A stretch of DNA of 64,000 nucleotides, taken from the IMG/VR virus record IMGVR_UViG_3300036826_000261, positions 1-64,000 of that record. One strand, given 5' to 3'. Every line of letters starts with the position of its first letter. Positions within the stretch are counted from its first letter, which is position 1. This DNA is from a virus. The notes under the pieces are model-generated. The model did no database searches, had not been told where the DNA came from, and saw only the letters and a list, made by a program, of their open reading frames with translations. Made by a program: the position numbers and the translations under genes. Shown in pieces: positions 11,531-64,000 of the stretch.

Positions 11531-12600
11531 ATCGCCACGTGATCGAGCACACGGCGCCACCGGAGCGTGGTTTTCGACGCAATCCGCTGCCTGTCTCACA
11601 AGGCAACTGTTTTGTGCGCATGCTGACCGCCAAGGTGATTGGCCAGTTGCGCAACATGGCACCGATCTCGGTCGCCACCGGAATGTGGCCGAGCGACAGA
11701 ATCACAGCCGAGATTTTGGAACGCGCATCGAGCGCGCCGGCCATGACGGGCGTAGCCGGTTGGGCTGCCGAGCTGACACAGCGGTTGGTCAGTGACGCGA
11801 TCTCGATCATGAGTGGCGTATCGGCCGGCGCCGAAGTGCTGCGGCGCTGCTTGATGCTGGCGTTGGATCGCAACGGCTTTTTGGTGCCGGGTCTGGTGGT
11901 TGACGCTACCGGCGCTTCGTTTGTCGCTGAAGGTGATCCGATCCCGGTGCACAATCTTGCGACGACGCCAGGATCGATTCCGTTTACCAAGCTCGCCAGC
12001 ATCGCGGTTTTGACAAGAGAAATGGTTGAATCGAGCAACGCCGAAGCGCTGATCGGCAACGCGCTGGGACGTGCAGCCGGTTTGGCGCTCGATGCCGTGC
12101 TGTTTTCCAGCGCCGCCGCGACATCAGCAGCGCCGGCTGGCTTGCGCAACGGCATTGGTGCTTTGACGGCAAGCGTCAACACCGATCCGTTCGCAGCGGT
12201 GTTCGAGGACATGGCAACGCTGTTCAACGCGGTCGGTCAAGTCGGCGGTGCCGGCCCGTTTGTTCTGGTTGCGGGTCCCGGCCGCGCGATAACCTTTTCC
12301 ATGCGGGTCGGCGGTGGCGCACAGTTATCGGTTTATCCGGTGGCGTCCAGCTTCGTCGGCAATGACCTGATCGCGATTGCACCACAGGCGATCGCGGCTG
12401 CGCTCGGCACGGAGCCGGTCATCGAGGCAGCAAAGGCCGGTGTTTTGCATATGGACACGGCGCCATCGGCGTCGCCTTCGGCCGGCGCGCGAAAAGAGAT
12501 GTATCAAACCGATTCGATTGCAGTGAAAATGCACTGGCCAGTATCTTGGCTTTTGCGCGATGCGCGCGGCGTGGCGTGGCTGACGCCGGCCTGGAAGTGA
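11527..12600 (+). CDS. HK97-fold major capsid protein paralogue
   Basis: Shares APAMT.VAGWA.EL, FV.EG..IPV, T.EM, LHM and QTDS.A....PV.W blocks with the capsid domain of 18860-21148. Confidence 0.8.
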   Translation: MNRHVIEHTAPPERGFRRNPLPVSQGNCFVRMLTAKVIGQLRNMAPISVATGMWPSDRITAEILERASSAPAMTGVAGWAAELTQRLVSDAISIMSGVSAGAEVLRRCLMLALDRNGFLVPGLVVDATGASFVAEGDPIPVHNLATTPGSIPFTKLASIAVLTREMVESSNAEALIGNALGRAAGLALDAVLFSSAAATSAAPAGLRNGIGALTASVNTDPFAAVFEDMATLFNAVGQVGGAGPFVLVAGPGRAITFSMRVGGGAQLSVYPVASSFVGNDLIAIAPQAIAAALGTEPVIEAAKAGVLHMDTAPSASPSAGARKEMYQTDSIAVKMHWPVSWLLRDARGVAWLTPAWK

Positions 12601-30488: not shown

Positions 30489-30917
30489 ATGTCGATAGCT
30501 GACGCTACCGAAAACGCTATTCTCTTGCTGATTTTCAACGCTACCACCTGGGCGAACTACGCCAACAATGCTTCGACGTCGCCGGAGACCAACATCATTT
30601 GCGCGTTGCACACCGCAGACCCCGGTGACGCCGGCGCGCAGAATACGTCCGAGATCGGCTATTCGTCCTATGCGCGGGTCAACGTCGCGCGCACCTCGGG
30701 CGGCTGGACGGTGACCGCCAACAGCGTCAGTCCGGTCGCCGCGATCAACTTCCCGGCCGGCACCGGCGGCTCCGGCACTGCATCGTTCTTCTCGACCGGC
30801 AAGTCCGGCGGCGGCGCTTCGCCGATTTTGTGGAGCGGTACAGTAACACCTAATATCGTGTGCGGCAGCGGTGTCACGCCGAGCCTCTCGACGGCGACGA
30901 CGATCACGCTTGACTAG
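30489..30917 (+). CDS. Small tail/virion structural protein
   Basis: ENAIL.LIFN, ALHTADPG and Y.SYARV.V.R motifs; AGGAG RBS. Confidence 0.8.
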   Translation: MSIADATENAILLLIFNATTWANYANNASTSPETNIICALHTADPGDAGAQNTSEIGYSSYARVNVARTSGGWTVTANSVSPVAAINFPAGTGGSGTASFFSTGKSGGGASPILWSGTVTPNIVCGSGVTPSLSTATTITLD

Positions 30918-31012: not shown

Positions 31013-31120
31013 GTGATGCCGTCATTTGCGACGGCGATCACCTTGAGCCAAGCCTGCCAATACCCTGCTTGGCCTCGCCGGGGGCACGCCGTGACACGTC
31101 CCGCCAAACCATGCCTAAGA
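31013..31120 (-). ncRNA. Solo GGY-NN guide RNA cassette 1
   Basis: Minus strand: TAGGCAT-GGTTT-GGCGG-GACGT-GTCAC-GGCGT-GCCCC(C)-GGCGA-GGCCA-AGCAG-GGTAT(T)-GGCAGGC..., ending in a hairpin at 31041-31013. Confidence 0.8.
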
Positions 31121-31126
31121 GCTTTG

Positions 31127-31155
31127 CAGCTAGGTGTGCTCAGCAGCCCTGTCAA
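31127..31155 (-). promoter_or_regulatory. Sigma70-type promoter for solo guide cassette 1
   Basis: TTGACA (31155-31150), 17 nt, TAGCTG; 9 nt upstream of the TAGGCATGG leader. Confidence 0.7.
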
Positions 31156-31175
31156 CCTGTGAAAGTAAATGAATC

Positions 31176-34900: not shown

Positions 34901-36650
34901 AACGGGCATTGGGCGGGCCACAGCCGCCGCTACAGCGGCGTCCGCCGCGACCGGCACCGCGACAGCCGCCGGCACCGGGATCGTCTCAGCGCCCGGCGCC
35001 GCTGCGGGAACAGGCGCTGCAGCGGCCACCGGGGCGGCGCTGTTCAGCGCCACCGGCAGCGCGGCGGGAACCGGTATTGCGCTGGGGGTGGCGCCGAGCC
35101 TTGGCAGCGCCACCGGCATCGGTGCGGCCAGCGCGGTCGGACAATCGACAGCGGCGGCGGTCGGCAGCGCGACGGCGACCGGCACCGCCACGGCGACCGG
35201 TACCGGCATCATCTTTTCGCCTGGGGCGGCGGCCGGCACCGGCGCGGCCAACGCCACCGGATCGGGCGTCGGCGTCACACAAGGCGCTGCCGCCGGCACC
35301 GGCGCGGCGTCCGGGGTCGGACAGTCTACAGCGGTTGCGACCGGATCGGCGGCGGGCGTCGGGGTCGCGTCAGGGGTCGGGCTCGCCAGTGCGCAGGGCG
35401 CTGCCGCCGGCCTCGGCGCGGCGTCCGGGATCGGGCGATCGACGGCGCTGGCGACCGGCAACGCGGCCGGCACAGGCACCGCGTCTGGAATTCAGCAAGG
35501 CACCTCGATCGCGGTTGCCGCCGGCACCGGGTCGGCACAGGCGCAAGCCGCTGGGCAAGGTGCCGCTGCCGGTCTCGGCGCGGCCAGCGCGACCGGCCAA
35601 GCGACGGCGCGCAGCCCGGGCAATGCCGCCGGTACCGGCGCGGCACAGGCGCGAGCCGCCGGGCAAGGGGCGACGTCCGGCGTTGGAACGGCTTCTGGCA
35701 TCGGCGCCAGCCTCGCCAGTGCGGTCGGCGCAGCGGCCGGCACTGGCACAGCGGCGGCGCAATCGTTGCAGGGTGGGCTCGGCAGCGCCGCCGGCACCGG
35801 TGTGGCGAGCGGCATCGGGCGATCGACGGCGGCAGCCGTCGGCAGTGCGGCTGGTCTCGGGTCGGCGGCGGCGGTCGCCAGCAGCCTGTCGATTGGCGCG
35901 GCCACCGGCACCGGCGTGGCTTCGGCGGTTGGCGTCGGGGCGAGCAATTCGGTCGGCGCATCTGCCGGAGTCGGCAGCGCGGCGGCGCAATCGCTGCAGG
36001 GCACGGTCGGCGTTGCCGCCGGCACCGGGACGGCCACTGGCGCCGGGGCGGCGTTGGTTCGGCAGCCGGGCAGCGCGGCCGGGATCGGCGCAGCCAACGC
36101 GGTCGGCACCGGCATCTTTGTCGCGGTCGGGTTTAGCTCCGGTCTCGGCGGCGACACCGGCGAGGCGACGGCGCTGGCGTCGGCGCAAGGCCATGCCGTC
36201 GGCACCAGCACGGCGACGGCGCCGGGCAGCGGGTTCGAGATCGGCGACGGCAGCGCCGCCGGTCACGGCGTCGCGACCGGTGTCGCCAAATCGGTCAATG
36301 CCGGCGTCGGCGCGGCGGCCGGGCTCGGCACGCTGCAGGCGGTGGCGCGGGTTATCGGTGCAGGCGTCGCGCAGGAAGCGTCCGATGTCGCCAATGGCGT
36401 CGCTTATTGGGTGCCGGAAGGCACCGCGCAGGAAGCGCCCGACACCGCGCACGGCACCAGCGGCAAGCGCTTCAGCGAGGATTTCATTGCCGAGATCGCG
36501 CCGCCGCCGGAGCTGGCGGGCGAGATCGAACCGACACCGGCGTTCACCGGGCGCAAGCGCTCGGCCGATCTGGTGGCGCAACTGTCCGCCGCGTCCGCGT
36601 TCACTGGGCGCACGCGCAACAGCCAAGATTTTATCGGACGCATGCCATGA
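31926..36650 (+). CDS. 1574-aa Gly/Ala/Thr-rich virion-associated protein
   Basis: Gly-rich N-terminus, two beta-rich domains (GDLLVAVI...LPSGW; VTDDKGNTY) and dozens of G.AAGTG.AS.VG repeats. Confidence 0.85.
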   Translation: MATYVFVVSGTTTGAPPGDYQATGSTWDVIGGGGSGAVASGGVQPNAGGGGGWSQIVNVAWSSAQTVQIGQGGAAKSTTNTAGAAGTATWARIDGGGTAPATTAQGVLANPGSGGLVGSGTGTAGGSVTGAVGTTTRAGGNAGAENDTSYAGPGAGGAAGPGGAGGTGGADSQNGPYGGSAGGGANGGGGAGGATTGGQVGTQGGASISTGNQTGASGGTTNTAPTAANAGSNGSGGGGGSGSTSSGTAAGRGGDGGAGKEYDSSHGSGGGGGSGGGNTAGGTNGQGGTGGLYGGGGGASGSGSSGLGTSGAGAQGLLAITYTPSGGAPTWAFVGVTSVVSVTAATHTLSEPAGVQQGDLLVAVISSRIASTTSITLPSGWSLVAEAKNNNTLTTSSAAASGMMAYCVRGASAPSFTFTHPTAPSVALGYVVAYRNNDPSPLDVHTAWTTATNTTAVSGAGVTTGFASDLIVVGTCGGQEATWTALSAATDPSGASGTGGQTGNPVTGSWLERAENTTTTGADTSLGIFDAVRGTAGATGNISVTAGTAAAHVLVIGAFKLAPPAGNNGAAAGTGTASAVGTGLKIAQGAAAGTSTASATGSGAGSGQGVASGTGAASAVGIGLKIAQGAAAGTSTASATGSGGAVAPAFVQHVTPNAFQGGSSASATGAAVGVGNCVVGAVSWQRADTLDLTSVTDDKGNTYTIVDRGGDPGNAQTHVTFILWNITNGPSTITANFSQSEGINDIVWDEYSGVLTTDPRDGHAINLQSPASNTTDAATSGSITTTVANDLIWSSIVDCQGSSQNGYAAGTGYTKRGTFWLSGYGATEDKTLATPGSVAGTWTLTTSSVVAVAVIALKPALPAGAGSGAAAGTGAANGVGQSTAVAAGSAAGTSTASATGSGASNSTGSSAGTGAASGVGRSTFLATAVATGTGAASATGTAAAAGTGNASGAGAASATGAATVVATGSTAGTSSAQAQAAGQGATSGTGTATGIGRATAAATAASAATGTATAAGTGIVSAPGAAAGTGAAAATGAALFSATGSAAGTGIALGVAPSLGSATGIGAASAVGQSTAAAVGSATATGTATATGTGIIFSPGAAAGTGAANATGSGVGVTQGAAAGTGAASGVGQSTAVATGSAAGVGVASGVGLASAQGAAAGLGAASGIGRSTALATGNAAGTGTASGIQQGTSIAVAAGTGSAQAQAAGQGAAAGLGAASATGQATARSPGNAAGTGAAQARAAGQGATSGVGTASGIGASLASAVGAAAGTGTAAAQSLQGGLGSAAGTGVASGIGRSTAAAVGSAAGLGSAAAVASSLSIGAATGTGVASAVGVGASNSVGASAGVGSAAAQSLQGTVGVAAGTGTATGAGAALVRQPGSAAGIGAANAVGTGIFVAVGFSSGLGGDTGEATALASAQGHAVGTSTATAPGSGFEIGDGSAAGHGVATGVAKSVNAGVGAAAGLGTLQAVARVIGAGVAQEASDVANGVAYWVPEGTAQEAPDTAHGTSGKRFSEDFIAEIAPPPELAGEIEPTPAFTGRKRSADLVAQLSAASAFTGRTRNSQDFIGRMP

Positions 36651-37069
36651 ACCTTGTCGATCTGTTTGCAGGAGATGACTGGCAACTGAACTTCACGCTG
36701 CTCAACGCGGACGGCACGCCGTTCGATCTGACCGGCGGTCCGCAACTGCTGTGGACTTTGCTTAATCGGCTGAACCATCGGCTGATCGAATCCAACGAAG
36801 TCACTTACTCGATCACCAACGCGACTGCAGGTCAGTTCTCGGTATTGGTGCCGGCGATGATCACGACACGGCTGGCGGCGGCGATCTGCGAGCACGTGTT
36901 GCGGGTGATCTCCGGCGGTGTCGCCGCGACGCCATTCGCTGGACAGATCAACGTGCATGTCGATCCGTGGGCGGCGGCGCCGGCACCGTCGCAGAGCAAC
37001 GTCGTCAACATGACGGCGAAGCTGCGTCGTGATCAGGATCGCGCGGCCGGCGAAGGGCGGGTCGGATGA
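36647..37069 (+). CDS. BppU-like Ig-fold tail/baseplate protein
   Basis: GDDW...FTL...DGTPFDLTG and AT.GQF.V motifs. Confidence 0.65.
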   Translation: MNLVDLFAGDDWQLNFTLLNADGTPFDLTGGPQLLWTLLNRLNHRLIESNEVTYSITNATAGQFSVLVPAMITTRLAAAICEHVLRVISGGVAATPFAGQINVHVDPWAAAPAPSQSNVVNMTAKLRRDQDRAAGEGRVG

Positions 37070-37440
37070 CCGTCAGCTATATCGCGGCGCTGAAGACCAC
37101 GCGGATGCAGGCGGTGATCAACGCGATCGATGCCGGCACGGCGGGCACGCTGGAGATGGGCACCGCCGGTATGGGCACGGTGCTGGTGACGTTCAGCCTG
37201 AACAAGCCGTCGTTCTCGCTGTCGGGCGACACCATCACGATGATCGGCGCGCCGAAATTCGCTGCCGCCAGCGCCACCGGCACGGCCGCCAATGCGCGGA
37301 TCAGGAGCAGCACCGGCAGCGTCATCGTGTCGGGTTTGACGATCGACACCGCTGGCGCCGACATCAACTTGAACGACACCAACATCGTGGCCGGCCAGAA
37401 CGTCACGCTGTCGAGTTTCTCGATTACGCATGCACCATAG
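37066..37440 (+). CDS. Small virion structural protein
   Basis: ATGTA..ARI and DI.L...NI.AGQ.VT.SS..ITH motifs. Confidence 0.7.
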   Translation: MTVSYIAALKTTRMQAVINAIDAGTAGTLEMGTAGMGTVLVTFSLNKPSFSLSGDTITMIGAPKFAAASATGTAANARIRSSTGSVIVSGLTIDTAGADINLNDTNIVAGQNVTLSSFSITHAP

Positions 37441-37449
37441 GGAGAGCAC

Positions 37450-37875
37450 ATGAATAAGCCCGAACGCGAAGGCTTTGTGAAAGACGAACCGGTCGAGATG
37501 AAGGACGTCACGCCGCAACATGACACTGAACTGGATTTGCCGCAGGACGCGCCGGAATGGCCGCTGACGATCAAGCTGCTGCACAAGCCGATCCAGAAAT
37601 CGCGCACCGAGATGCTGCACGAGATCACGTTTCGCGAGCCGAATACGCTCGACATCGTCCGCTGCGGCGGCAACCCGTGTCGGATCGAAATCGCCGATGT
37701 CGGCGGCAGTCGCGCGGTGTTCAACGCCGTGATCGACGACCGCAAGATGATGACGCTGATGGCCAATCTGTCCGGGCTGCTGGAGCCGCAGATTCAGAAG
37801 ATGGACCCGCGAGACTATAACAGTTGCGCTTATCGGTTGCGCAGCTTTTTTCTCCCGGAGCAAGGTCTCTTCTAG
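37450..37875 (+). CDS. Tail assembly chaperone (Mu gp41/P2 gpE-like)
   Basis: L.KPI, I.FREP...DI, MDPRDY and FF C-terminal motifs; precedes the tape measure gene. Confidence 0.85.
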   Translation: MNKPEREGFVKDEPVEMKDVTPQHDTELDLPQDAPEWPLTIKLLHKPIQKSRTEMLHEITFREPNTLDIVRCGGNPCRIEIADVGGSRAVFNAVIDDRKMMTLMANLSGLLEPQIQKMDPRDYNSCAYRLRSFFLPEQGLF

Positions 37876-38063
37876 AAGGCGGCCTTGCTCCGAATCCGGA
37901 GGAAATGATTATCAACGCTTATCGGTTGGCGGATCGTTACAAACAAGACCCGATGACGTTTTTGCAGCAACCGTTGTCGCAAATAAACATGCACGTTTAC
38001 TACACGCTCAAACTGATCGAGTTGCAGAACGCGGCACGGGCGCGTGAGAATGAAGACGAGTGA
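37846..38063 (+). CDS. Probable -1 frameshift extension of the tail chaperone (E+E'-like)
   Basis: T6 run at 37846-37851; the -1 frame is open to 38063 (YRLA..Y..DP..FL). Confidence 0.6.
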
Positions 38064-38070
38064 AAAGCAT

Positions 38071-38257
38071 GAAGGGTGACCCGTTCCCAGATCACCCTTC
38101 ACTTGTGCCGACCATGACGAGACCGGCCCGGCCAGACGGCGCCAAGGCCAAACCCCGACAAACCACGCCTGCCAAGTCTGGCTTTGCTTGGCCAAATCTT
38201 ACCGCGCCAGACCTTGTCGCGCCGAACCGCGCCTGTCCTCGCCTGCCATGCCTAAGA
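38071..38257 (-). ncRNA. Solo GGY-NN guide RNA cassette 2 (two units)
   Basis: Minus strand: TAGGCATGGCA, 14 pentamers, GGCA, about 8 pentamers; ends in hairpin GAAGGGTGA/TCACCCTTC (38071-38100) followed by ATGCTTTT. Confidence 0.85.
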
Positions 38258-38264
38258 ATTGGTG

Positions 38265-38293
38265 TAGGTAGTTTATTTGTTTGCGACTGTCAA
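38265..38293 (-). promoter_or_regulatory. Sigma70-type promoter for solo guide cassette 2
   Basis: TTGACA (38293-38288), 17 nt, TACCTA; 10 nt upstream of the TAGGCATGG leader; same geometry as cassette 1. Confidence 0.7.
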
Positions 38294-38310
38294 GTTCGGG
38301 AATCGTTGTA

Positions 38311-40806
38311 ATGGCGACTGAACAAGAGCAACTGGAACTTGTCGTCACGCTTGATGATCAAGAAGCGCTGGCGAAGCTTGCCAATCTGAAAAATCAACTG
38401 GCCAACATGGGGTCAGGGTCTTCGGGGTTTGGCAAGGTCGGTGAGAGTGTCGAGCGTGCAACCAAAGGCGTCAAGGATTTAAGCTTCGAGATCGCCAAGG
38501 GCACGTTCTGGGGCAACATGTTTGCCGAGGCAGGCAAGGAAGTTCTCAAGTTCGGCGAAAAAGTTGTCGAGAGCGCGACGGACATCCAAGGGTTATCGAA
38601 ATCGATCGTCGATCTTTCGACGACCGCTTCGCGCATGGGAACAAGTTTAGGTCAACTGCGCTCCAATCTGCGCGTGTTCGATGAAATGGGAGTCGATGCC
38701 GGCAAGGCCACTGCGACATTGCAGGGTTTGGCCGATTCGATGGGCGATCTGCAAACGATTAACGGTCGGCTGCGCGGTCAATTGCGCAGTGGCGGATTTC
38801 TCGAACTACAGGAGATGCTGAAGGTTCTGCAAGACGCTGACGAGGCGAAGACGGTCGAAGAGTTCGGCGAGACCATGCGCAAGGCCGCCGAGAAGGTGCG
38901 GGAGCGTTGGACCGATCTCGCCGGTCCTGAAAAAGGCGCAGAGATGCAGCGGCGGTTTCTGGCGTTGCTCAAGGCGCCGGAGCTGGATCAGCTCGAAGGC
39001 AAACTCGGCAAAATAAACAAACAACAAGATGAGTTTTCCAAAAGACAGGAAACCATTCTGAAGCAATTCTACGCGGCTAGTCGCGGTATGGCGGAAGGTC
39101 TTGAGCGCATCGGGCAAGCGATCGGCACGGTGGTTGCAGCGATGAATTTGCCGTGGATGCAGACATTGGCCGACACGTTCAAAGCTGGTGCGGAATACGC
39201 CGAACGCATTGCGCTGGCGCTGACCAAGTTGAATGTCACACCAACAGAGGCAAAAAGCGCGATCCAAGACACGTTCGGCAAGTTTGGTCTAGGTGTGCCG
39301 GCGCCGAGTTTCAACGAGCGTTTCGGGACATGGCCCGGTGCGACCGCGGCGCCGATGAAATTCATCGGCGGCAGTGTGCAGGGCGGTGAGTGGGACAGCC
39401 GCAATTTCACGGCCAGCGGCAACGATTTTTGGCGCAATCTGCAGGGTCGCGGCGACGTCGATATCGAAGACCGGCGCAATCTCGAAGATAACACCGATCA
39501 GACCAAACAGCTCACTGAGCAGATGCGCCAGCTCAATGATGCATTGACCAATCCGATGGCGACGGGACGTGGCGGCGGCTTGGCTGCGATGGGCGCAGCG
39601 CTCGGTCTCGGCGATCTCGGCGGTGGCGGTGGCGGCGGCGGTGGCGGCGGCGGCGGCGGTCGTGCGCGACCGTGGGCGCTACGCAGTCCGAGTGATGCGC
39701 CTTACGGCAATGATGCTGGACCCGGCACCGGCAAGGGTGCCGGTGAATCCCCTGCGGCCATGGGTGCCCCACCGGGTCCCGGCGGTCCTGGTGGCATTAC
39801 GGCGCCGGCCGGGACGCCGATCATGCGCGGCGGCACTACAACGGTGACGACGGCGAGCGGGCACAAGTTTCAGGTTGCTGCCGCCTACGCGAAAAATTTC
39901 CAGGGCTTCATCAACGATTACGAAGCGGCTGGCGGTGTCATCGGTCCCAATTCCGGCACGCTTGGCAGTCGGCCGAGCAATGCATCTGGACATCCGATCG
40001 GTACGGCGTTCGATCTCAATCAAGTCGCGCGCAACGTTCGCAAGGGTGGCGTATCGCTGCCGCAGGAGCAAGAGGAAGCGCTGGCGAAAAAATGGGGTCT
40101 TGTCTCGGGCAGCCAGTGGCGCAATCCCGATGCCGGACATTTCGGCATTCGCAGCGCCAAGGCAGCGCGCGACGCGTTGATCGCCAATGGCGTGCCGGAG
40201 GGTGAAGCCAACAAGATCGTCGGCGGTGCCGCCAGCGGCGGGGCGGTCGGCGGCAGTGCCGGTGATGCCGCCAAGGTTAGGGGCTCATGGTTCGGCAACG
40301 CACCGGGTTGGCATGACCCATCCGAGCCGGTGGATAGTCCGAAGAGCAATCGGCCCGGCATTGCGTTGCCGTCCAAAGCGACGCTTGGTCAGATGTTCGA
40401 GGTGACGACGCCGGACGGTCGCAAATTTATGTTGCCGCAAACCGATGTCGGACCGGCAGCGCGCACCGGGCGCGGCGTTGATATCACGGCGGCAGCGGCG
40501 GCGAGGATGGGTTATACCGCGAAGAATTTTCCGACCGATGAACGCTTCATGGTGCAGCCGGCGTCCAAAAGCATGGACGCAGCGATTGCCCGTGGCGCGG
40601 AGCTGGATAAGGAGCGCGAAACGACGGTGACCGGCAAAGGCCATTTGAAAGTCGATATCAATGGCCCACCCGGCACGCGAGCGAGCGCGACGGGCGAAGG
40701 GCTGCTGAAAGACACCTCGATTTCGCGTGCGACGCAGATGGCGCCGGCCAGCTCCGGGCCGACCAATCCGGCCGGCGACACGCCGTACGTGTTCGGCGGG
40801 ACTTAA
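38311..40806 (+). CDS. Tape measure protein with C-terminal M15-like peptidase and DPBB/RlpA-like domains
   Basis: Helical N-terminal half; S.H..G.AFDLN...WGL.SG..W...D..HF; TDVGP...TGR.VDIT..AA; position after the chaperone. Confidence 0.8.
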   Translation: MATEQEQLELVVTLDDQEALAKLANLKNQLANMGSGSSGFGKVGESVERATKGVKDLSFEIAKGTFWGNMFAEAGKEVLKFGEKVVESATDIQGLSKSIVDLSTTASRMGTSLGQLRSNLRVFDEMGVDAGKATATLQGLADSMGDLQTINGRLRGQLRSGGFLELQEMLKVLQDADEAKTVEEFGETMRKAAEKVRERWTDLAGPEKGAEMQRRFLALLKAPELDQLEGKLGKINKQQDEFSKRQETILKQFYAASRGMAEGLERIGQAIGTVVAAMNLPWMQTLADTFKAGAEYAERIALALTKLNVTPTEAKSAIQDTFGKFGLGVPAPSFNERFGTWPGATAAPMKFIGGSVQGGEWDSRNFTASGNDFWRNLQGRGDVDIEDRRNLEDNTDQTKQLTEQMRQLNDALTNPMATGRGGGLAAMGAALGLGDLGGGGGGGGGGGGGGRARPWALRSPSDAPYGNDAGPGTGKGAGESPAAMGAPPGPGGPGGITAPAGTPIMRGGTTTVTTASGHKFQVAAAYAKNFQGFINDYEAAGGVIGPNSGTLGSRPSNASGHPIGTAFDLNQVARNVRKGGVSLPQEQEEALAKKWGLVSGSQWRNPDAGHFGIRSAKAARDALIANGVPEGEANKIVGGAASGGAVGGSAGDAAKVRGSWFGNAPGWHDPSEPVDSPKSNRPGIALPSKATLGQMFEVTTPDGRKFMLPQTDVGPAARTGRGVDITAAAAARMGYTAKNFPTDERFMVQPASKSMDAAIARGAELDKERETTVTGKGHLKVDINGPPGTRASATGEGLLKDTSISRATQMAPASSGPTNPAGDTPYVFGGT

Positions 40807-40809
40807 ACC

Positions 40810-41412
40810 ATGCCGACGATCCGCGAATTGCCAAGCGCGTGGCGCGAACGGTTGTTGCCGGCGCATTTCGACGGCCGGATGTTTCATGTCGAGAGCGGTT
40901 CACGTGAATCCGGTCGTCGGGTCGTCGTGCATGAATTTCCGAAAAAAGAGGACCCTTATTCCGAGGACATGGGCAAGCGCGCGATTGCGTTCACGGTGCG
41001 TGGTTATTGCATTGTCTATCCGCACGATGACCCGTCCGCGACATCGCTCTATCGCCAGGATTATCAGATCGCGCGCGATGCGTTGATTGAGCGGTTGGAA
41101 ACCGGCGGCACGGGCGTGCTGCAACTGCCGACGCTGGCGCCGCTCAAGGTAAAGTGTCAGCGCTACCGGATCACGGAGGAAGAAAAAACCGGTGGCTATT
41201 GCGTGTTCGACATGCAGTTCATCGAGGCCGGCGTGCAGCCGTTCATGCCGAACGTCGATACGGCAACGAACCTTCGCATGCAGGCGGATCAGCTCAAGCA
41301 GCAGGTCGCCAGTGTCTGGGCCGCGCAACGCGCCAAGACCGGTCTTGAGGATACCAGACTCAAATTCTTGACCGGACCGCCGCCGCCGAGCACAGGCACG
41401 CAACGACGATGA
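40810..41412 (+). CDS. DNA circularization protein, N-terminal domain (Mu gpN-like)
   Basis: WR..L.PA.F.G..F.V, GRR.VVHEFP and EDMGK motifs. Confidence 0.9.
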   Translation: MPTIRELPSAWRERLLPAHFDGRMFHVESGSRESGRRVVVHEFPKKEDPYSEDMGKRAIAFTVRGYCIVYPHDDPSATSLYRQDYQIARDALIERLETGGTGVLQLPTLAPLKVKCQRYRITEEEKTGGYCVFDMQFIEAGVQPFMPNVDTATNLRMQADQLKQQVASVWAAQRAKTGLEDTRLKFLTGPPPPSTGTQRR

Positions 41413-46046: not shown

Positions 46047-48410
46047 ATGCCCGACATCCGTCTGGTGCAGAACAGGCTGTTTCCCGGTCAGGGCGTGGTG
46101 CAGACCGATTGGCTGTTGCGCAGCAACGGCACGCTTGACGACACGCAGGCGTTGGCCACCGCGATCATTGTCGCGCTCGGCACTGATCGGTTGGCCGACT
46201 CAAGCGACACGCTGCCGGACCCCGATGACACCAACCGGCGCGGCTGGTGGGGCGATTATCAGGCGCAGGACATCTGGGACGGCTGGCCGATCGGCTCGCG
46301 GCTGTGGCTGCTGCAGCGGTCCAAGATCACCGGACCGGAAGCCCGCGAGGGCGCCACCACGGTGCTGGTCACGCAGTACATCCGCGAATGTATCCAGCCG
46401 TTCATCGACCGGCGCATCGGGTCGAGCTTCACGGTCGAGGCCACCCGGGTCGGCAAGGAGCAGATCGACGCGCTGATCCGCATCTATCGCGGGCCGATTG
46501 TCGAAATCGAACTGCGCTACGCCATTCTGTGGGATGAAACCACGCCGCAGGCGACGCCGCCCGCGCCCTGGGCGCCGCTGGCGCCGATGACGAATCGCGG
46601 TCGTGGATCGGCGCGCGGCACCGGCAGCGCGGTCGCCGATGGCGACATGATCATCGATGCAGGTGTTGCCAAGGGTGCTGCGGCGTCGGCGGGCAGCACG
46701 GCGAGCGGTGTCGGCACCAAGAAGCTGACGTCGATCGGGATGGCGCCGGCCGGAATTATTGGCGTGGCGGCGGTCGGCAACTGGAAGATCGCCGTGCCCG
46801 GCGCGGCGGCTGGACATGGCAGCGCGGCGGCGGTGCCGACCGTGTTCGGTGGGGTGGGTGCGGCGAGCGGCATCGGCGTTCTTAACGGCTACAGCGCGGT
46901 CGCGACCAGCTACACCGATATCTACAACGTGCAGAATGTCGCCGGTTGGCAGGACTTTGCAGGCTATCGTGGGTCGTATCGGCAGGTCGTGCAACTGATC
47001 GGCGACAGTCAGGGCAAGATTCGGATTCTGGTCGAGCAGTTCTGCGATGCGGCAGCGGGTCATTTCTCCGATACGACGCATGTGTCGTTCGGCAAATGGG
47101 CGGGCACTAATGCGGACACCACGACGACACCGGTCGAATTGAAATTTGGCGGTGTGTCCGGCTTCACCGGGCCGCGCTCCGGTGCGCAGTTTCAAACACT
47201 GTTGTCCGACACGGTGGCGCATCCCGGTTTCACCTTGGCGACGGGCGATTCGATCGTCGTCATCTTCGATACGCCGACCAGCGATGCGACGGCGCATCTC
47301 GGCGGCGAAGCCTGGGGCGAAGGCGCGTCATCGTTCTGGTGGTGGAATAACTCGCCGCTGGAGACTTGGAATATCGCCGCACCGGGTGTCACGGCTGGCG
47401 GCACCAGTTCGCAGGTGGTCGCGCTGTCCAAGGTGCAGACCGCGCCGGCTGGTCCGACCGCGTCGATCGCGGTCGGCGCGGCAAGCGGCAGCGGCACGGC
47501 GCACGGTGTTGGTCCGCCCGCGACCATCACGGGCACTGGCGCGGCTTCGGCCACCGGCGCGGCGAGTGGGGTTTACGCTACGGCGACGTTGATCTGGGCT
47601 GACGAGTTCACGGCACCGCTTAATCTAGCGTCGGATTCCAATCCGAACGGCACGTGGCGGCCGAACGCGATCTGGCAAGATATCAACCAGGGCTACCAGG
47701 ACTTCGCCGGCACCAACTGGGATATCTCGCCGAACGATCCGGCGTGGGCGGCTTATCCGCCTTATAGTCAATCCGGCAGCGTGCTGACGCTGTATTCGTT
47801 CCGGATGCCGTCCGACATGGTCGCGCATACCCGCGCGCAGATGGACGCGCAGGGCAATTCCAATCCGGTGCCGGCGTGGTGCGGTTGTCAGTTGTCTACC
47901 AACTCGGTGGTGCGCAAGTTCAAGCAGCCCTACTATGTCGAATGGAAAGCGCGCTGGCCGATCGATGGCCAAGGCATGTTCCCGGCGCTGTGGATGTTCT
48001 CCAGCGATTTCAGTCTCGATCCGCAGAACAAGGGTTCGGCCGAGATCGACATGCTGGAGATCAACGGGCATGGCGGCTGGTTCAATACCAATCTGCATCA
48101 GCGTAACACCGATCACAGCGGCTATGACTCGGCAGGCTACGGGCCGTTCACCGGCGACACGCAGGGTTGGCACACTTACGGTGTCGATCGGACGTCCACC
48201 TACATTCGGTTCTATCGCGACAACGTGCTGCTCTATGAAGCAACCGGCACCGATGCGTCATGGTTCAACGACGTCAACATGGACATCCTGATCAACTTCG
48301 CGATGGATGCGTACTGGTTTTACAGTTACGGCCTCAATTCCGATACCACCACGCCGTCGCCGATGACGATGGAGGTTGACTATGTCCGCGTCTACTCCAG
48401 CAAGCCCTAA
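46047..48410 (+). CDS. Mu gp46-like baseplate protein fused to a GH16 glycoside hydrolase domain
   Basis: AL.TDR, RRGWWGD and GSRLWLL.RSK motifs; C-terminal LIW.DEF, PALWM, EIDMLE, WHTYG and M.VDYVRVY motifs. Confidence 0.85.
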   Translation: MPDIRLVQNRLFPGQGVVQTDWLLRSNGTLDDTQALATAIIVALGTDRLADSSDTLPDPDDTNRRGWWGDYQAQDIWDGWPIGSRLWLLQRSKITGPEAREGATTVLVTQYIRECIQPFIDRRIGSSFTVEATRVGKEQIDALIRIYRGPIVEIELRYAILWDETTPQATPPAPWAPLAPMTNRGRGSARGTGSAVADGDMIIDAGVAKGAAASAGSTASGVGTKKLTSIGMAPAGIIGVAAVGNWKIAVPGAAAGHGSAAAVPTVFGGVGAASGIGVLNGYSAVATSYTDIYNVQNVAGWQDFAGYRGSYRQVVQLIGDSQGKIRILVEQFCDAAAGHFSDTTHVSFGKWAGTNADTTTTPVELKFGGVSGFTGPRSGAQFQTLLSDTVAHPGFTLATGDSIVVIFDTPTSDATAHLGGEAWGEGASSFWWWNNSPLETWNIAAPGVTAGGTSSQVVALSKVQTAPAGPTASIAVGAASGSGTAHGVGPPATITGTGAASATGAASGVYATATLIWADEFTAPLNLASDSNPNGTWRPNAIWQDINQGYQDFAGTNWDISPNDPAWAAYPPYSQSGSVLTLYSFRMPSDMVAHTRAQMDAQGNSNPVPAWCGCQLSTNSVVRKFKQPYYVEWKARWPIDGQGMFPALWMFSSDFSLDPQNKGSAEIDMLEINGHGGWFNTNLHQRNTDHSGYDSAGYGPFTGDTQGWHTYGVDRTSTYIRFYRDNVLLYEATGTDASWFNDVNMDILINFAMDAYWFYSYGLNSDTTTPSPMTMEVDYVRVYSSKP

Positions 48411-61257: not shown

Positions 61258-61362
61258 GCCTGCACGATGTTTTTGCCGGCGAAAAATTTTCTTGACTTTT
61301 CGCCAAACCCGTCGCTCGCTTCCCGGATTCGTAAAATCAAAATGCTAAAGGGAGAGAAGCAA

Positions 61363-62241
61363 ATGGCGAAAAAGGCACCCGTCAGTGAAATCATCGAAAT
61401 CCAAGCTATCGAAATGGCGTCGCTGGATTTCCATGTGGTCGGCACCAGCCCGTTCATCATGCATCGCTTCAGTCAGAAGGCGTGGCAGGAATTGCTGCTG
61501 CCGTCGATCCGCGAAAACCGCGCTAGTCTCGAACAGAAGCTCAAGCATGATCCGTATGCAGAATTTCGTGGCGCGTTCTATCGCAACAGCAATCCGCGCG
61601 CCAAGACGGCGTACCATATTCCAAACGGCGCGTTTCACGGCGCGATCGCCAGCGCCGCGCTCGACATGCCGGGTGCCAAGAAGGCGCAGATCGAGCGGTT
61701 GACCAAGATCACCAGCGTCAACATCGAACTGTATGGCATCCCGAAAATCTTTTGCAGCATGGTGCGTAACAGCGACATCTCGCGCACGCCAGATGTGCGC
61801 ACCCGGCCGATCTTCCCGCGCTGGGCGTGCACGGTTTCGGTGCGCTACGCGAAGAACGCGTTGACGGCCAAAGCCGTCGCCAATCTGTTCGGCGCGGCGG
61901 GCGAGATCATCGGCATCGGTGATTGGCGCGGTCAGAAGGGCGGACCGTTCGGCGCGTTCCGCACCAACGTGTCGGTGAACGATAAAGAGTTCAAGAGCAT
62001 CTTGAAGGAAGGCCGCGTCGCGCAATTGAAAGCTTACGACAAACCGTTGTTCTACGATGAAGACACGGAAGAAATTTTAACGTGGTTCGCCACCGAGGTG
62101 CGCCGCCGTGAGTTGGAAGGCAAGATGCGCAGCGATAACGTCAAGGAGTTTCGCGTTATCACCGAGCGCGGCAAGGAGCGCGGCAACGGCGAGTTGGTGA
62201 GCCTTGACGACAAGCGGCGGACCCGTCGAAAGGCCGCGTGA
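61363..62241 (+). CDS. Stand-alone RAMP/Cas7-like RNA-binding effector protein
   Basis: First-strand motif VVGTSPFIMH, helix motif IP..AF.GAI..AA, RPIFPRW and C-terminal Gly-rich loop AGEIIGIGDWRGQKGGPFG.F; GGGAG RBS; adjacent to the GGY-NN array. Confidence 0.8.
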   Translation: MAKKAPVSEIIEIQAIEMASLDFHVVGTSPFIMHRFSQKAWQELLLPSIRENRASLEQKLKHDPYAEFRGAFYRNSNPRAKTAYHIPNGAFHGAIASAALDMPGAKKAQIERLTKITSVNIELYGIPKIFCSMVRNSDISRTPDVRTRPIFPRWACTVSVRYAKNALTAKAVANLFGAAGEIIGIGDWRGQKGGPFGAFRTNVSVNDKEFKSILKEGRVAQLKAYDKPLFYDEDTEEILTWFATEVRRRELEGKMRSDNVKEFRVITERGKERGNGELVSLDDKRRTRRKAA

Positions 62242-62735
62242 TGGCGAAAGCCACCAAACACGACCGCATCAAAGCGGCGTTGGAAGCGATCAGGCGCTCG
62301 CATCGCGGGCGCTTGACGGCGCGGGCCGTGGTCGAGGCGGCCAAAAATCCTAGGCACCCGTTGCACAGTGAATTTGAATGGAACAACCAGAAAGCAGCGG
62401 ATCAGCAACGCTTGGAGCGTGCGCGCGAACTAATCAGATACGTCACGGTCGTGGTCGTTGATGCAACGCGTAAAGTCGAAACACGATTTTATGCGCACGA
62501 TCCGCGAACGCCGCATCGTGAAGGCTATGTCAGCATCTTGGAGATGAACCGCCGCGATGCTGAACAAGATGTGGTCAACGCTATCGCGATCTGTCAATCG
62601 ACGATCGATCGCGCGCTCAGCAAAGCGGAATTTCTCAGCGCGAAGCATCGTGGTGTTTCACGATTGTTGAAAAATGCAGTTGCTACCCTTGCCGCCGCGC
62701 ATGATCTGCTCGAAGGCTCGGCGGCAGCGGCGTGA
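62238..62735 (+). CDS. Partner protein of the RAMP-like gene
   Basis: LT...VV.AA.....PLH..FEW....AA...RL..AR.LIR motif; GTGA overlap with the RAMP gene. Confidence 0.8.
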   Translation: MMAKATKHDRIKAALEAIRRSHRGRLTARAVVEAAKNPRHPLHSEFEWNNQKAADQQRLERARELIRYVTVVVVDATRKVETRFYAHDPRTPHREGYVSILEMNRRDAEQDVVNAIAICQSTIDRALSKAEFLSAKHRGVSRLLKNAVATLAAAHDLLEGSAAAA

Positions 62736-62740
62736 AGTCA

Positions 62741-62961
62741 TAGGCATGGCAGGCTAGGCAAGGTGCGGCCCGGCCGGAGTAGGTTCGGTGCGGCAAGGCA
62801 GGCATGGCCCGGGAGACGCGGTGAAGCGTGTCCGTGATCTGGTAGCGTCGGGTAAGGCGGCGTTGGATGGGGTGAGGCGAGGCAGGCTTGGTCAGGTCTG
62901 ACGAGACTGGGCGCGGTAGGTTTTGGCGCGGTACGGCAAGGCGTGATGCGGTAAGGCAGGC
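62741..62961 (+). ncRNA. GGY-NN guide array, block 1 (three units)
   Basis: TAGGCATGGCAGGC leader; GGCA delimiters at 62748, 62797, 62881 and 62955; 5-nt periodicity. Confidence 0.85.
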
Positions 62962-63219
62962 ATGGCCAGAAACACAGCGGATAAGGTTCTCGAAAACAAG
63001 TTGCGGCTGATCGCCAAACGGCGGGGTTTGTTTCTTTCGAAATCCCGTCGTCGCGATCCGTTTGCGCTCGACTTTGGTTATGAGTTGAGAGACGCGCAAC
63101 AGCACGTCATCGAAACAGCGTGCAGTCTTACTCGAATCGAAAACTTGTTAGCTCTCGGTCGGACGGGGCGGAAACGTTTAACAGTCGAAGGATGGCGTCA
63201 CATCATCCTTGGTAAGTAG
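62962..63219 (+). CDS. Small basic protein embedded in the guide array
   Basis: KV.EN.LR..A.R.GL.L.KSRRRDP.A.D.G motif; non-repetitive sequence between the two array blocks. Confidence 0.7.
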   Translation: MARNTADKVLENKLRLIAKRRGLFLSKSRRRDPFALDFGYELRDAQQHVIETACSLTRIENLLALGRTGRKRLTVEGWRHIILGK

Positions 63220-64000
63220 GCATGGCAGGCGTGGCCGGGCCGGGTTGTCCCCGGTGTGGCAGAGCATGGCAGCGCAGGGTTGACATGGCAGGGCAGGCAG
63301 GGTCCGTCGTGGTCGCGCGGGATTGGGCGGGGCAAGGCACGGCACGATGCTGGTCTGGCGAGGCGTGGCAGGCATGGCTGGATCAGGCGTGACGAAGCTT
63401 GGTGTAGCTAGGCCGGGTGCAGTGTAGGCATGGCGAGGCAGGCGCGGCGGGACAAGGTCCGATATGGCGTGGCGCGGTCTGGTTCGGTCTGGCCGGGTTT
63501 GGCAGGCAAGGTGCGTCGAGGCCAAACATGGTGTGACAAGGTACGGCGCGGCCTGATCTGGGCTCGACTGGGCAGGCGCGGTGGGTTCTGGCTCGACATG
63601 GTTAGGCGAGGCCCGGTGATGCCCGGCATGTTGAAGTGCGTCCTGGCAGGCGTGGCGGGGGTGCGTGCGAGGCGGGACCGGGCAAGGTCGGGCACGTTAT
63701 ATGGTCTGGCTGGGCACGGCTTGGCGGGTCACGGCAAGGCACGGCCGGCAAGGTTTGTCCGGAACCGGTTTGGCTTGGCGAGATGCGATTAGGCGAGGCG
63801 AAGCGAGGCCGGCTAAGCGTGACTTGGTCGGGTAGACGTGGCCGGGCACGGTAGCGGCGTGGATCGGCCGGCGACGCTAGGCTTGTCGTCGATCGGCATG
63901 ACATGGCGCGGCACGGCGAGGCGTGGTTCGGCCGGCGCGATTAGGTGTGGTCGGAATCGGCATGGCTCGGTGTCGCGTGGTCTGGCGTGGCTCGGCTGGG
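63217..64000 (+). ncRNA. GGY-NN guide array, block 2 (at least 11 units, truncated by the window end)
   Basis: Leader TAGGCATGGCAGGC; GGCA/GGCC delimiters at 63224, 63292, 63367, 63437, 63501, 63571, 63645, 63743, 63807, 63866 and 63930; many units are exactly 4+5n nt. Confidence 0.9.

What the first reader, a model, noticed from the sequence alone, without database searches (positions are those of the whole stretch)
38071..38400. Second solo guide cassette matches the 5' end of the neighbouring tape measure gene
Seen: unit 1 NN = GA CA GC TC GC AA CT GC AA TT CA AA CA TT, compatible with DQASAKLANLQNQL. The tape measure gene at 38359-38400 is CAA GAA GCG CTG GCG AAG CTT GCC AAT CTG AAA AAT CAA CTG (QEALAKLANLKNQL). 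In the same skip-wobble register, 8/14 dinucleotides and 21/28 nt match (hand estimate about 4e-8 per position). Two of the mismatches are synonymous Leu TT/CT swaps. This guide has the coding-strand sense, whereas cassette 1 is antisense. Inference: the target is dsDNA rather than mRNA, and the real target is a homologous tape measure gene in a related phage. I could not assign unit 2 (GT TT GG TT CT GC CT CG).
Basis: partly seen in the sequence, partly recalled or inferred. Interest (0 to 1): 0.92.

Follow-up and report, generated by a model that had tools for sequence, protein, structure and literature searches.

The report
Solo VIPR guide beside tape-measure gene
This is a stand-alone guide-RNA gene of the recently described phage VIPR silencing system; its guide fits the start of the tape measure gene as related phages carry it, while the phage's own neighbouring copy is altered and fits less well.

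Summary
The minus strand of 38070-38296 has a promoter-like site, a TTAGGCATGGCAGGC leader, 14 GGY-NN pentamers and an intrinsic terminator. The system is already published. The phage encodes a Vipr homologue (61363-62241; profile E 3.7e-44 to PDB 36pp "SUSP1 Vipr protein") and a 2.4-kb staggered array.

The 21/28 match to 38359-38399 is the unique best site in the 72.7-kb genome (next best 18). Shuffled guides reach it in 1 of 300, 0 of 300 and 0 of 200 trials.

In all six tape-measure relatives found, the best hit is the orthologous site (20-23/28; two reach 82%, above the published 80% cut-off). None of the six carries the cassette. The phage's own DDQEALA replaces the family's DDQAS motif and is unique among 66 relatives, giving a self match of 75%. 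No target above 82% was found.

The sister cassette matches 22/22 in 4 of 80 relatives, against 19/22 for its own neighbouring gene.

Verdict: a new member of a known kind. The placement of guides beside near-cognate own genes recurs (6 of 374 units; 0 in four controls) and may be new. The scan noted this stretch twice, on this genome only.

The parts
38288..38293 (-). TTGACA, a -35-like hexamer of the cassette's own promoter. It is followed after 17 nt by TACCTA (38265-38270).
   Evidence: Read directly. Cassette 1 has the same layout (TTGACA-N17-TAGCTG-N8-TTAGGCATGG). The strict sigma-70 scan lists no promoter here, so this is inferred.
38241..38255 (-). Leader TTAGGCATGGCAGGC. The same 14-mer opens both parts of the main array.
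   Evidence: exact copies at 38241-38254 (-), 62741-62754 (+) and 63217-63230 (+). 6 matches with up to 2 mismatches against 0.39 expected; 0 of 100 shuffles reach 6.
38174..38243 (-). Guide: 14 GGY-NN pentamers (vrRNA unit 1), bounded on both sides by a GGCA|GGC junction of the staggered type.
   Evidence: caller: n=14, GGY conformity 0.57; the main-array units range 0.40-0.88.
38103..38173 (-). No target could be assigned.
   Evidence: (13/16, 179 of 200 shuffles as good).
38059..38102 (-). Intrinsic terminator for the minus-strand RNA: a 15-pair stem followed by GCTTTTCACT. It overlaps the stop codon of the upstream plus-strand gene.
   Evidence: stem 38102..38069. The same hairpin appears in the fold.
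38359..38399 (+). Near-cognate site in the phage's own tape measure gene (codons 17-30, QEALAKLANLKNQL), 21/28.
38311..40806 (+). Tape measure gene (831 aa).
   Evidence: It follows the tail assembly chaperone (Pfam PF10109, E 2.3e-10). Its relatives are long tail proteins. PHROG 2013 'lytic tail protein', E 2.1e-4.
37450..38063 (+). Tail assembly chaperone pair (37450-37875 and 37824-38063). In relatives the second gene abuts the tape measure gene.
61363..62241 (+). vipr gene (RAMP/Cas7-like effector of the system).
62238..62735 (+). Accessory (vap-like) gene coupled to vipr.
   Evidence: homologues beside arrays in 21 of 121 loci; phrog_15946, E 2.4e-14.
62741..64000 (+). Main staggered vrRNA array. 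It runs on to 65180 of the genome, beyond the window, and is interrupted by an 85-aa ORF at 62962-63216.
31020..31175 (-). Sister solo cassette 1, with the same promoter-like site and leader. Its guide matches the adjacent gene at 30825-30856.

Best explanation
38059-38296 (minus strand) is a self-contained vrRNA gene of this phage's VIPR system, placed 23 kb from the vipr locus, between the tail assembly chaperone and tape measure genes.

By analogy with the published mechanism, Vipr protomers would coat the RNA one per pentamer, hold each GGY, and present the NN pairs. The NN pairs would read double-stranded DNA with one target base skipped per unit, and the bound complex would block transcription.

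The 14-unit guide spells the conserved N-terminal motif of this tape measure family (DQASAKLANLQNQL at codon positions 1-2). Its likely targets are tape measure genes of related competitors: co-infecting phages, resident prophages, or satellites that carry a tape measure homologue. The phage's own copy has a lineage-specific extra codon and a Ser-to-Leu change inside the footprint (DDQEALA) and drops to 75%, below the published 80% call. The guide therefore sits beside the allele that is least fitted to it. I infer that this linkage keeps guide and spared allele together when related phages recombine.

Shown here: the anatomy, the Vipr homologue, the statistics of the match, the orthologous hits in relatives, and the atypical own allele. 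Inferred: transcription, loading on Vipr, silencing, sparing of self, and the linkage argument.
For: System identity:
- A profile of 65 array-adjacent proteins, with the window's protein first, hits PDB 36pp_D 'SUSP1 Vipr protein' at E 3.7e-44.
- The pairwise alignment keeps the thumb Arg and the G-loop GDWR, which the cryo-EM preprint names as GGY contacts.
- The AF2 model has pLDDT 87, and its top Foldseek hits are Cas7-family subunits such as Csm3 (E 9.6e-6).
- A homologue lies beside a GGY array in 73 of 121 loci, on the same strand in 70 of the 73.

Guide and target:
- 21/28 is the unique best site in the genome.
- Of 28 units with at least 8 pentamers in this phage, only this one (0 of 200 shuffles) and the first array unit (5 of 200) have a self match that shuffled guides rarely reach.
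- In 6 of 6 tape measure relatives the best site in the locus is orthologous: 20, 23, 22, 23, 21 and 22 of 28.
- Guide units 1-5 score 10/10 in 4 of the 6 relatives, 9 and 8 in the other two, and 6/10 in the own gene.
- None of the 6 has a cassette. In five of them the chaperone stop and the tape measure start overlap or lie up to 4 nt apart, against 247 nt here.
- 50 of 66 protein relatives have DQAS, DxAS or DQAT at this place; 0 of 66 have the own arrangement.

Sister cassette:
- Its 11-unit guide scores 22/22 in 4, at least 20 in 31 and at least 18 in 55 of 80 relatives, against 19/22 for the own gene. The own mismatches are Leu CTN>TTG and Ser TCN>AGC.

Recurrence:
- Among 374 units in 120 other phage loci, 10 have an in-locus match with p<=0.01, and 6 of those lie within 320 nt of the guide.
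- Reversed guides and skips of 0, 2 and 3 give 5, 0, 3 and 4 such hits, with 0 within 320 nt.
- One case (L051) is again a minus-strand solo just upstream of a tape measure gene (25/32; PHROG 305, E 3.6e-8). That gene is unrelated to this one.

Literature: solo vrRNAs, self scores lower than rival scores, and satellites that carry tape measure homologues are described in 10.64898/2026.10.15.759431.
Against: - No target better than 23/28 was found. The relatives (71-82%) bracket the own score (75%), and L126 scores lower than self.
- The 80% line is a bioinformatic cut-off from the preprints, not a measured binding threshold. I read no mismatch-tolerance data.
- Only 8 of 14 scaffolds are strict GGY, and the preprint says that perturbing GGY abolishes silencing. 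It also notes frequent internal degeneracy.
- No 3' tail like the SUSP1 pseudoknot was recognised.
- The strict promoter scan finds nothing.
- Cassette 1 scores 86% against its own gene, above the published cut-off. 'Self is spared' is therefore not a clean rule in this phage.
- A tape measure protein can be supplied in trans, so silencing a rival's copy is not obviously harmful to the rival unless the block is polar on downstream genes.
Confidence: 0.6

Rival explanations
1. Self-regulation. The vrRNA binds the phage's own tape measure start despite 7 mismatches and tunes or times late tail-gene transcription.
For: The best site in the whole genome is the phage's own neighbouring gene. Cassette 1 matches its own gene 14/14 over 7 units and 19/22 overall. 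Near-cognate sites next to guides recur in other phages at 70-78%. Published vrRNAs silence from either strand.
Against: A regulator of self should keep full complementarity, but the own allele is the outlier of its family exactly inside the footprint. Cassette 1 fits 31 of 80 relatives better than it fits self. The preprints report no self hits at >=80%.
Confidence: 0.15
2. Relic. The cassette is a decaying vrRNA left from a past conflict. The match records history, and the RNA no longer directs silencing.
For: GGY conformity is 8 of 14. The 3' half is degenerate, has a register slip and has no assignable target. No high-identity target was found.
Against: The leader is identical to the array's. 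There is a clean 15-pair terminator. Both GGCA|GGC junctions are intact. The conformity lies inside the main array's range of 0.40-0.88. The stretch is identical in contigs of independent soil runs, although these show no variation anywhere in the region, so the point is weak.
Confidence: 0.15
3. Decoy or competitor RNA. The cassette titrates a rival phage's Vipr, or redirects it, as satellite solo vrRNAs do.
For: Solo vrRNAs that redirect a helper phage's VIPR to decoy sites are published.
Against: This phage has its own vipr and a large array. The guide maps to a protein-coding motif of a phage gene, not to a multi-copy host repeat. No host genome was available to scan.
Confidence: 0.04
4. 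Chance resemblance between a G-rich periodic spacer and the neighbouring gene.
For: Only 75% identity, and many possible registers.
Against: It is the unique genome-wide best site. Shuffles reach it in 1 of 300, 0 of 300 and 0 of 200 trials. It is adjacent to the guide, in the codon register, and the orthologous site is the best hit in 6 of 6 relatives.
Confidence: 0.02

Closest known systems
VIPR (Viral Interference Programmable Repeat) systems, in particular those with 'staggered' vrRNA arrays (bioRxiv 10.64898/2026.04.26.720920; Results, Discussion, three Methods sections and figure legends read)
   Same: A Vipr RAMP protein with a coupled accessory gene; GGY/NN pentamer RNAs; the 1-nt skip with the skipped base on the wobble position; targets on either strand; phage-borne. 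Junctions of 5n+4 spacing fit the '1 nt overlapping' staggered arrays of the fig. S18 legend.
   Different: This guide gene lies 23 kb from vipr, inside the tail operon and antisense to it, with its own promoter-like site and terminator. No pseudoknot tail was seen. The Vipr here is 292 aa with a helical C-terminal extension, against about 200 aa. I could not assign one of the seven types, because the supplements are closed.
Solo/orphan vrRNAs of F5 satellites and VIPR-null SUSP1-like phages (bioRxiv 10.64898/2026.10.15.759431; abstract, sections 7, 8, 9, 17, 25 and passages read)
   Same: A vrRNA standing alone. Guides aimed at relatives' genes. Self scores lower than rival scores. In VIPR-null phages the solo sits where the targeted gene (vipr) lies in rivals, so the guide is again linked to a spared 'allele'.
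   Different: Those elements lack vipr, whereas this phage has it. Their targets are vipr, vrRNAs, satellites or host REP repeats, not a structural gene next door. Enterobacterial phages there, a soil phage here.
Free-standing homing endonucleases of T-even phages (marker exclusion); recalled, no call
   Same: A selfish weapon sits beside the resistant version of the locus that it attacks in related co-infecting phages, so weapon and immunity are inherited together.
   Different: An RNA-guided binder rather than a nuclease. No evidence here of gene conversion or of spread of the linked segment.
Class 1 CRISPR Cas7 backbones and phage-borne mini-arrays / solitary repeat units; the Cas7 likeness tested by fold, the mini-arrays recalled
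   Same: RAMP fold (Foldseek top hits Csm3/Cmr4/Cas7-11); periodic base flipping by a thumb; guides carried by phages against rivals.
   Different: A 5-nt unit with only 2 reading bases; the guide is encoded in the repeats themselves; no spacer acquisition genes and no nuclease were seen.

Membership tests
VIPR system | A Vipr (minimal RAMP) protein encoded in the same element | tested here: met
   Window 61363-62241. Profile A1 against PDB 36pp_D 'SUSP1 Vipr protein', E 3.7e-44; pairwise E 0.0034 with the thumb Arg and G-loop GDWR aligned; Foldseek top hits are Cas7-family; PHROG 4652.
VIPR system | vrRNA made of tandem GGY/NN (YNNGG) pentamers, 9-16 per guide | tested here: met
   14 pentamers at 38174-38243 (-), 8 of them strict GGY. 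The preprint's own search accepted 4 or more repeats because of 'frequently observed internal degeneracy'.
VIPR system | NN positions match a target under the 1-nt skip rule, with the skip on the codon wobble | tested here: met
   21/28 in frame with the tape measure codons; skip 0 gives 18 and skip 2 gives 19. The orthologous in-frame sites score 20-23/28 in 6 of 6 relatives.
VIPR system | A natural target at >=80% NN match and no self hit at >=80% (published calling rule) | tested here: inconclusive
   Self is 75%. 2 of 6 relatives reach 82%, and none goes higher. Protein-level bounds reach at most 26/28 (P0007).
VIPR system | A conserved structured 3' tail capping the guide (pseudoknot in the SUSP1 clade) | tested here: not met
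   The two solos share only TTGGCAGGCNTGG after the guide, and the 3' region is degenerate pentamers plus a terminator. The preprint describes staggered arrays in which one vrRNA's end is the next one's start, so a tail may not define this type.
VIPR system | Expressed small RNA that co-purifies with Vipr and silences a matching reporter | not testable with these tools
   No RNA run holds the stretch.
Solo vrRNA (as published: a vrRNA on an element without vipr or vap) | Absence of vipr/vap from the carrying element | tested here: not met
   vipr and a vap-like gene are present at 61363-62735 of the same 72.7-kb record. This is a dispersed vrRNA of a VIPR-positive phage, 'solo' only in position.

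The most novel reading that the evidence does not exclude
The recurrent placement of guides right beside a near-cognate stretch of the phage's own DNA may be a footprint of how VIPR guides are born. On this reading, positions 1-2 of the neighbouring codons are copied in cis into a GGY scaffold, as a primitive form of adaptation, and the source gene then escapes by indels or by Leu/Ser six-fold codon switches. The placements are two of two solos here, plus L051, L092, L102 and L103; overall 6 of 374 units against 0 in four controls. No adaptation mechanism for VIPR is described in the texts I read.
Probability: 0.07. Interest if true: 0.9.

Novelty: new member of a known kind. Interest (0 to 1): 0.45.

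Why it matters
The system itself is no longer new. This locus still adds three testable points to a months-old field.

1. A VIPR-positive phage scatters extra guide genes, each with its own promoter-like site and terminator, inside its structural operons.

2. Each such guide sits beside the phage's own, less well fitted version of the gene that it fits in relatives. An unrelated phage has the same chaperone | antisense guide | tape measure layout. Such linkage would make guide plus spared allele a selfish unit when related phages recombine.

3. The phage's own genes show how the wobble-skipping code can be escaped without loss of the protein: Leu CTN/TTR and Ser TCN/AGY switches in cassette 1, and a one-codon insertion in the tape measure gene. 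The preprints argue that escape needs amino-acid changes.

The locus also extends VIPR with staggered arrays to soil phages of 62% G+C. The array here holds about 36 called units.

Tried and rejected
Readings held before the Vipr hit and then dropped, each superseded:
- a TRAP-like ring-protein binding RNA (triplets at 5-nt spacing);
- a Rho-utilisation tract on the C-rich strand;
- two-tetrad G-quadruplex arrays;
- helical phasing of DNA (mean period 4.9 does not fit 10.5).

Searches and checks that gave nothing useful:
- Rfam: no family at gathering score in the window. At E<=0.1 in five array-bearing loci the only hit was an unrelated int-alpA RNA.
- tRNA scan: none.
- First literature search (pentanucleotide / bacteriophage / noncoding RNA / periodicity): nothing relevant among the 15 papers listed.
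- Tape measure relatives: the single-protein scan of viral contigs found none, and genome contigs with alignment A2 found none. Ten large relatives that share the cassette-1 target gene have no match to the first 300 residues of this tape measure.
- Half-guide exact scans of viral contigs returned 35 and 111 stretches. Rescoring gave nothing above 23/28. The 22-23 scores in the second set fall in unrelated genes (mostly A+T-rich sites) and are what 16 forced matches plus chance give.
- Unit 2: no target.
- No RNA holder listed for the stretch.
- Contigs of four soil DNA runs laid on 36000-41000 are identical over the cassette, so they say nothing about variation.
- MAFFT of the two cassette 5' parts misaligned the promoters. 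The shared TTGACA-N17-TAnCTn layout is read by eye.
- Supplementary tables of the three preprints were closed. They may already list dispersed vrRNAs or guide-adjacent targets. My statement that this placement is not in print rests only on the sections and passages named.

Rows dropped:
- Alignment A1 used 65 of the 73 homologues; 8 with odd lengths or cut ends were left out.
- The unit tests used only units of at least 8 or 9 pentamers and truncated guides at 16 units.
- The self scans (window genome) and the in-locus scans masked the arrays themselves.
Full report
WHAT IS THERE. The window is the first 64 kb of a 72,692-bp phage record (G+C 61.6%, rated 98% complete). Between the stop of the second tail assembly chaperone gene (38063) and the tape measure start (38311) lie 247 nt that code for nothing on the plus strand.

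On the minus strand these 247 nt read as follows:
- TTGACA (38293-38288), a 17-nt spacer, then TACCTA (38270-38265);
- 9 nt, then the leader TTAGGCATGGCAGGC (38255-38241);
- 14 pentamers of the form GGY-NN (38243-38174), then a GGCA junction;
- a further, degenerate run of pentamers with a 1-nt register slip;
- a 15-pair hairpin followed by GCTTTTCACT (38102-38059).

A sliding test for 5-nt periodicity picks out this stretch, three short stretches I did not follow up (1186-1266, 12501-12586, 47571-47671), and a 2.4-kb region at 62.7-65.2 kb. That region is a plus-strand array of the same pentamers. It is cut into units of 5n+4 nt by AGGC/CGGC junctions and opens twice with the same 14-mer leader. 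A second solo cassette with the same promoter-like layout and leader lies at 31020-31175.

WHAT KIND OF THING IT IS. The hits include phages of 30-50% G+C. I called ORFs around these arrays and clustered them. One protein family, which includes window 61267-62241, lies beside the array in 73 of 121 loci and on the array's strand in 70 of those 73. A second family, which includes window 62238-62735, does so in 21 loci. Pfam has neither family. PHROGs lists them as 4652 and 15946, both of unknown function.

A profile of 65 of the 73 proteins hits one solved structure, PDB 36pp 'SUSP1 Vipr protein', at E 3.7e-44. That name led to three 2026 preprints. They describe VIPR systems as follows:
- a roughly 20-kDa RAMP protein, Vipr, polymerises on vrRNAs built of 9-16 GGY/NN repeats;
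- the NN pairs read double-stranded DNA with one target base skipped per unit, and the skipped base usually falls on the codon wobble;
- either strand can be targeted, no PAM is needed, and the outcome is transcriptional silencing of competing phages and satellites;
- 'staggered' arrays with 1-nt overlapping vrRNAs exist, as do 'solo' vrRNAs on satellites and on phages that have lost vipr.

The window's protein keeps the thumb arginine and the G-loop GDWR that the cryo-EM work names as the GGY contacts. Its AF2 model (pLDDT 87) resembles Cas7-family subunits.

IS THE MATCH REAL? The guide's 28 informative bases match 38359-38399 at 21 positions. This is the only site in the genome, on either strand, above 18. 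Shuffled guides reach 21 in 1 of 300 trials (unit order), 0 of 300 (bases) and 0 of 200; other skip lengths give 18-19. Of the 28 units of this phage with 8 or more pentamers, only two have a self match that shuffled guides rarely reach. One is this unit. The other is the first array unit, which fits the vipr gene itself at 18/24 (5 of 200 shuffles). The match lies in the codon frame, with the skipped base on the wobble. It is real.

WHAT DOES THE GUIDE AIM AT? The tape measure family is rare. Six DNA relatives were found (35-44% identity: one metagenome contig and five viral contigs), along with 66 protein relatives.

- In each of the six loci, the best NNx site on either strand is the orthologous stretch of the tape measure gene. 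The scores are 20, 23, 22, 23, 21 and 22 of 28. Two reach 82%, above the >=80% line that the preprints use to call natural targets. The own gene, at 75%, is below that line; the preprints found no self hit above it.
- The difference is concentrated in guide units 1-5 (GA CA GC TC GC, i.e. DQASA). These score 10/10 in four relatives, 9 and 8 in the other two, and 6/10 in the own gene. The own gene reads DDQEALA, with one extra codon and Ser replaced by Leu.
- Among the 66 protein relatives, 31 have DQAS, 15 DxAS and 4 DQAT at this place. None has the own arrangement.
- None of the six DNA relatives has a cassette. In five of them the chaperone and tape measure genes overlap or lie up to 4 nt apart.

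The phage that carries the guide is thus also the one whose target site is atypical.

The weak point is that no allele fits better than 82%. Every guide dinucleotide occurs in at least one relative at its proper place. The best bound from protein sequence alone is 21-26/28, and two exact half-guide scans of the viral collection found nothing better.

THE SISTER CASSETTE gives a clearer version of the same pattern. Its first seven units match the adjacent gene (30489-30917) 14/14, and its eleven units match 19/22 (0 of 300 shuffles). Eighty relatives of that gene were fetched. The guide fits the orthologous site 22/22 in 4 of them, at least 20 in 31 and at least 18 in 55. None of the 40 best-scoring loci, the ones whose rows I inspected, shows a GGY array within the 2.5-kb flanks.

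The own gene encodes the same peptide, ILWSGTVTPNI. It differs from the guide only through Leu TTG (50 relatives have CTN) and Ser AGC (38 have TCN). Only 4 of 80 relatives combine TTR with AGY. These are the synonymous changes that a wobble-skipping reader can still see. However, 19/22 is 86%, which is above the published cut-off, so sparing of self is not shown.

A RECURRING LAYOUT. I called 374 units in the 120 other array-bearing loci and looked for each unit's best site within its own locus.
- Ten units beat 99% of shuffles at 70% identity or more, and six of these sites lie within 320 nt of the guide.
- Reversed guides and skips of 0, 2 and 3 give 5, 0, 3 and 4 hits, none within 320 nt.
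- Four of the six near sites lie in the codon frame of a neighbouring gene: L051, L092, L102 and L103. For L102 the frame is my own reading of the output.
- L051 repeats the present layout. It has a minus-strand solo between an upstream gene and a tape measure gene (PHROG 305, E 3.6e-8), with the guide fitting codons 1-16 at 25/32. That tape measure shows no sequence similarity to this one.

MECHANISM, AND HOW SURE. I take the following as well supported (about 0.9 each): the cassette is a vrRNA gene, and its guide is cognate to the tape measure family's N-terminal motif.

I take the following as the most likely function (about 0.55). The guide silences tape measure genes, and by polarity the tail genes behind them, in related competitors, while the own diverged allele is bound poorly. 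[quoted passage not shown] The closeness of guide and spared allele would keep the two together during recombination; this step is inferred.

The rivals are self-regulation (0.15), a relic (0.15), a decoy (0.04) and chance (0.02). Expression could not be examined, because no RNA run holds the stretch.

NOVELTY. The system, the code and solo vrRNAs are in print as 2026 preprints. This is therefore a new member of a known kind. Three points may be new:
- dispersed vrRNA genes inside the structural operons of a VIPR-positive phage;
- their position beside the near-cognate own gene;
- the escape routes visible in the own alleles.

I did not find these points in the sections and passages I read (listed in the Tried and rejected section, under the closed supplements). 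The supplements were closed and may bear on this.

Noticed in passing
window 62737-62796 vs 61555-61589: The first unit of the main array near-matches the phage's own vipr gene on the opposite strand (18/24; 5 of 200 shuffles as good). This fits published 'vipr-targeting' guides aimed at rivals.
   Followed up: partly
window 62962-63216: An 85-aa basic ORF sits inside the array between two TAGGCATGGCAGGC leaders, and its ATG lies in a GGCATGGCC motif. It has no Pfam or PHROG hit.
   Followed up: partly
window 37846-37852; also L127, L129-L131: A run of T followed by C (TTTTTTC here, TTTTTTTC in L127 and L129-L131) lies near the end of the first chaperone gene. It looks like the usual tail-chaperone frameshift site.
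   Followed up: no
L007 3968-4582; L086 2926-3253; L013 8312-8680: In other phages the pentamer tracts alternate with a conserved 40-60-nt block. In L007 and L086 this block is hairpin-containing, which looks like the published tailed array type. L013 has an A+T-rich repeat instead.
   Followed up: no
L051 7162-7334: An unrelated, 69% G+C phage contig has the same layout: a minus-strand solo vrRNA between the upstream gene and the tape measure gene. Its guide fits tape measure codons 1-16 at 25/32, and its -35-like TTGACG overlaps the tape measure ribosome-binding region.
   Followed up: partly
G001-G010 (records behind L280, L289, L293, L294, L301, L303, L310, L315, L319, L343): Ten 54-73-kb relatives share the cassette-1 target gene at 59-77% identity but have no match to the first 300 residues of this tape measure protein. 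The tail module is therefore mosaic.
   Followed up: partly
window 38311-40806, residues 556-611: The tape measure protein has a weak Peptidase_M15_4 match (E 0.0012, below the Pfam cut-off). Relatives carry lysozyme-type domains (PF00959, PF18013), which suggests a lytic tape measure.
   Followed up: no
L007 1635-1704: An int-alpA RNA (Rfam RF02996, 36.8 bits, just above the gathering score) lies about 2 kb upstream of a VIPR locus.
   Followed up: no
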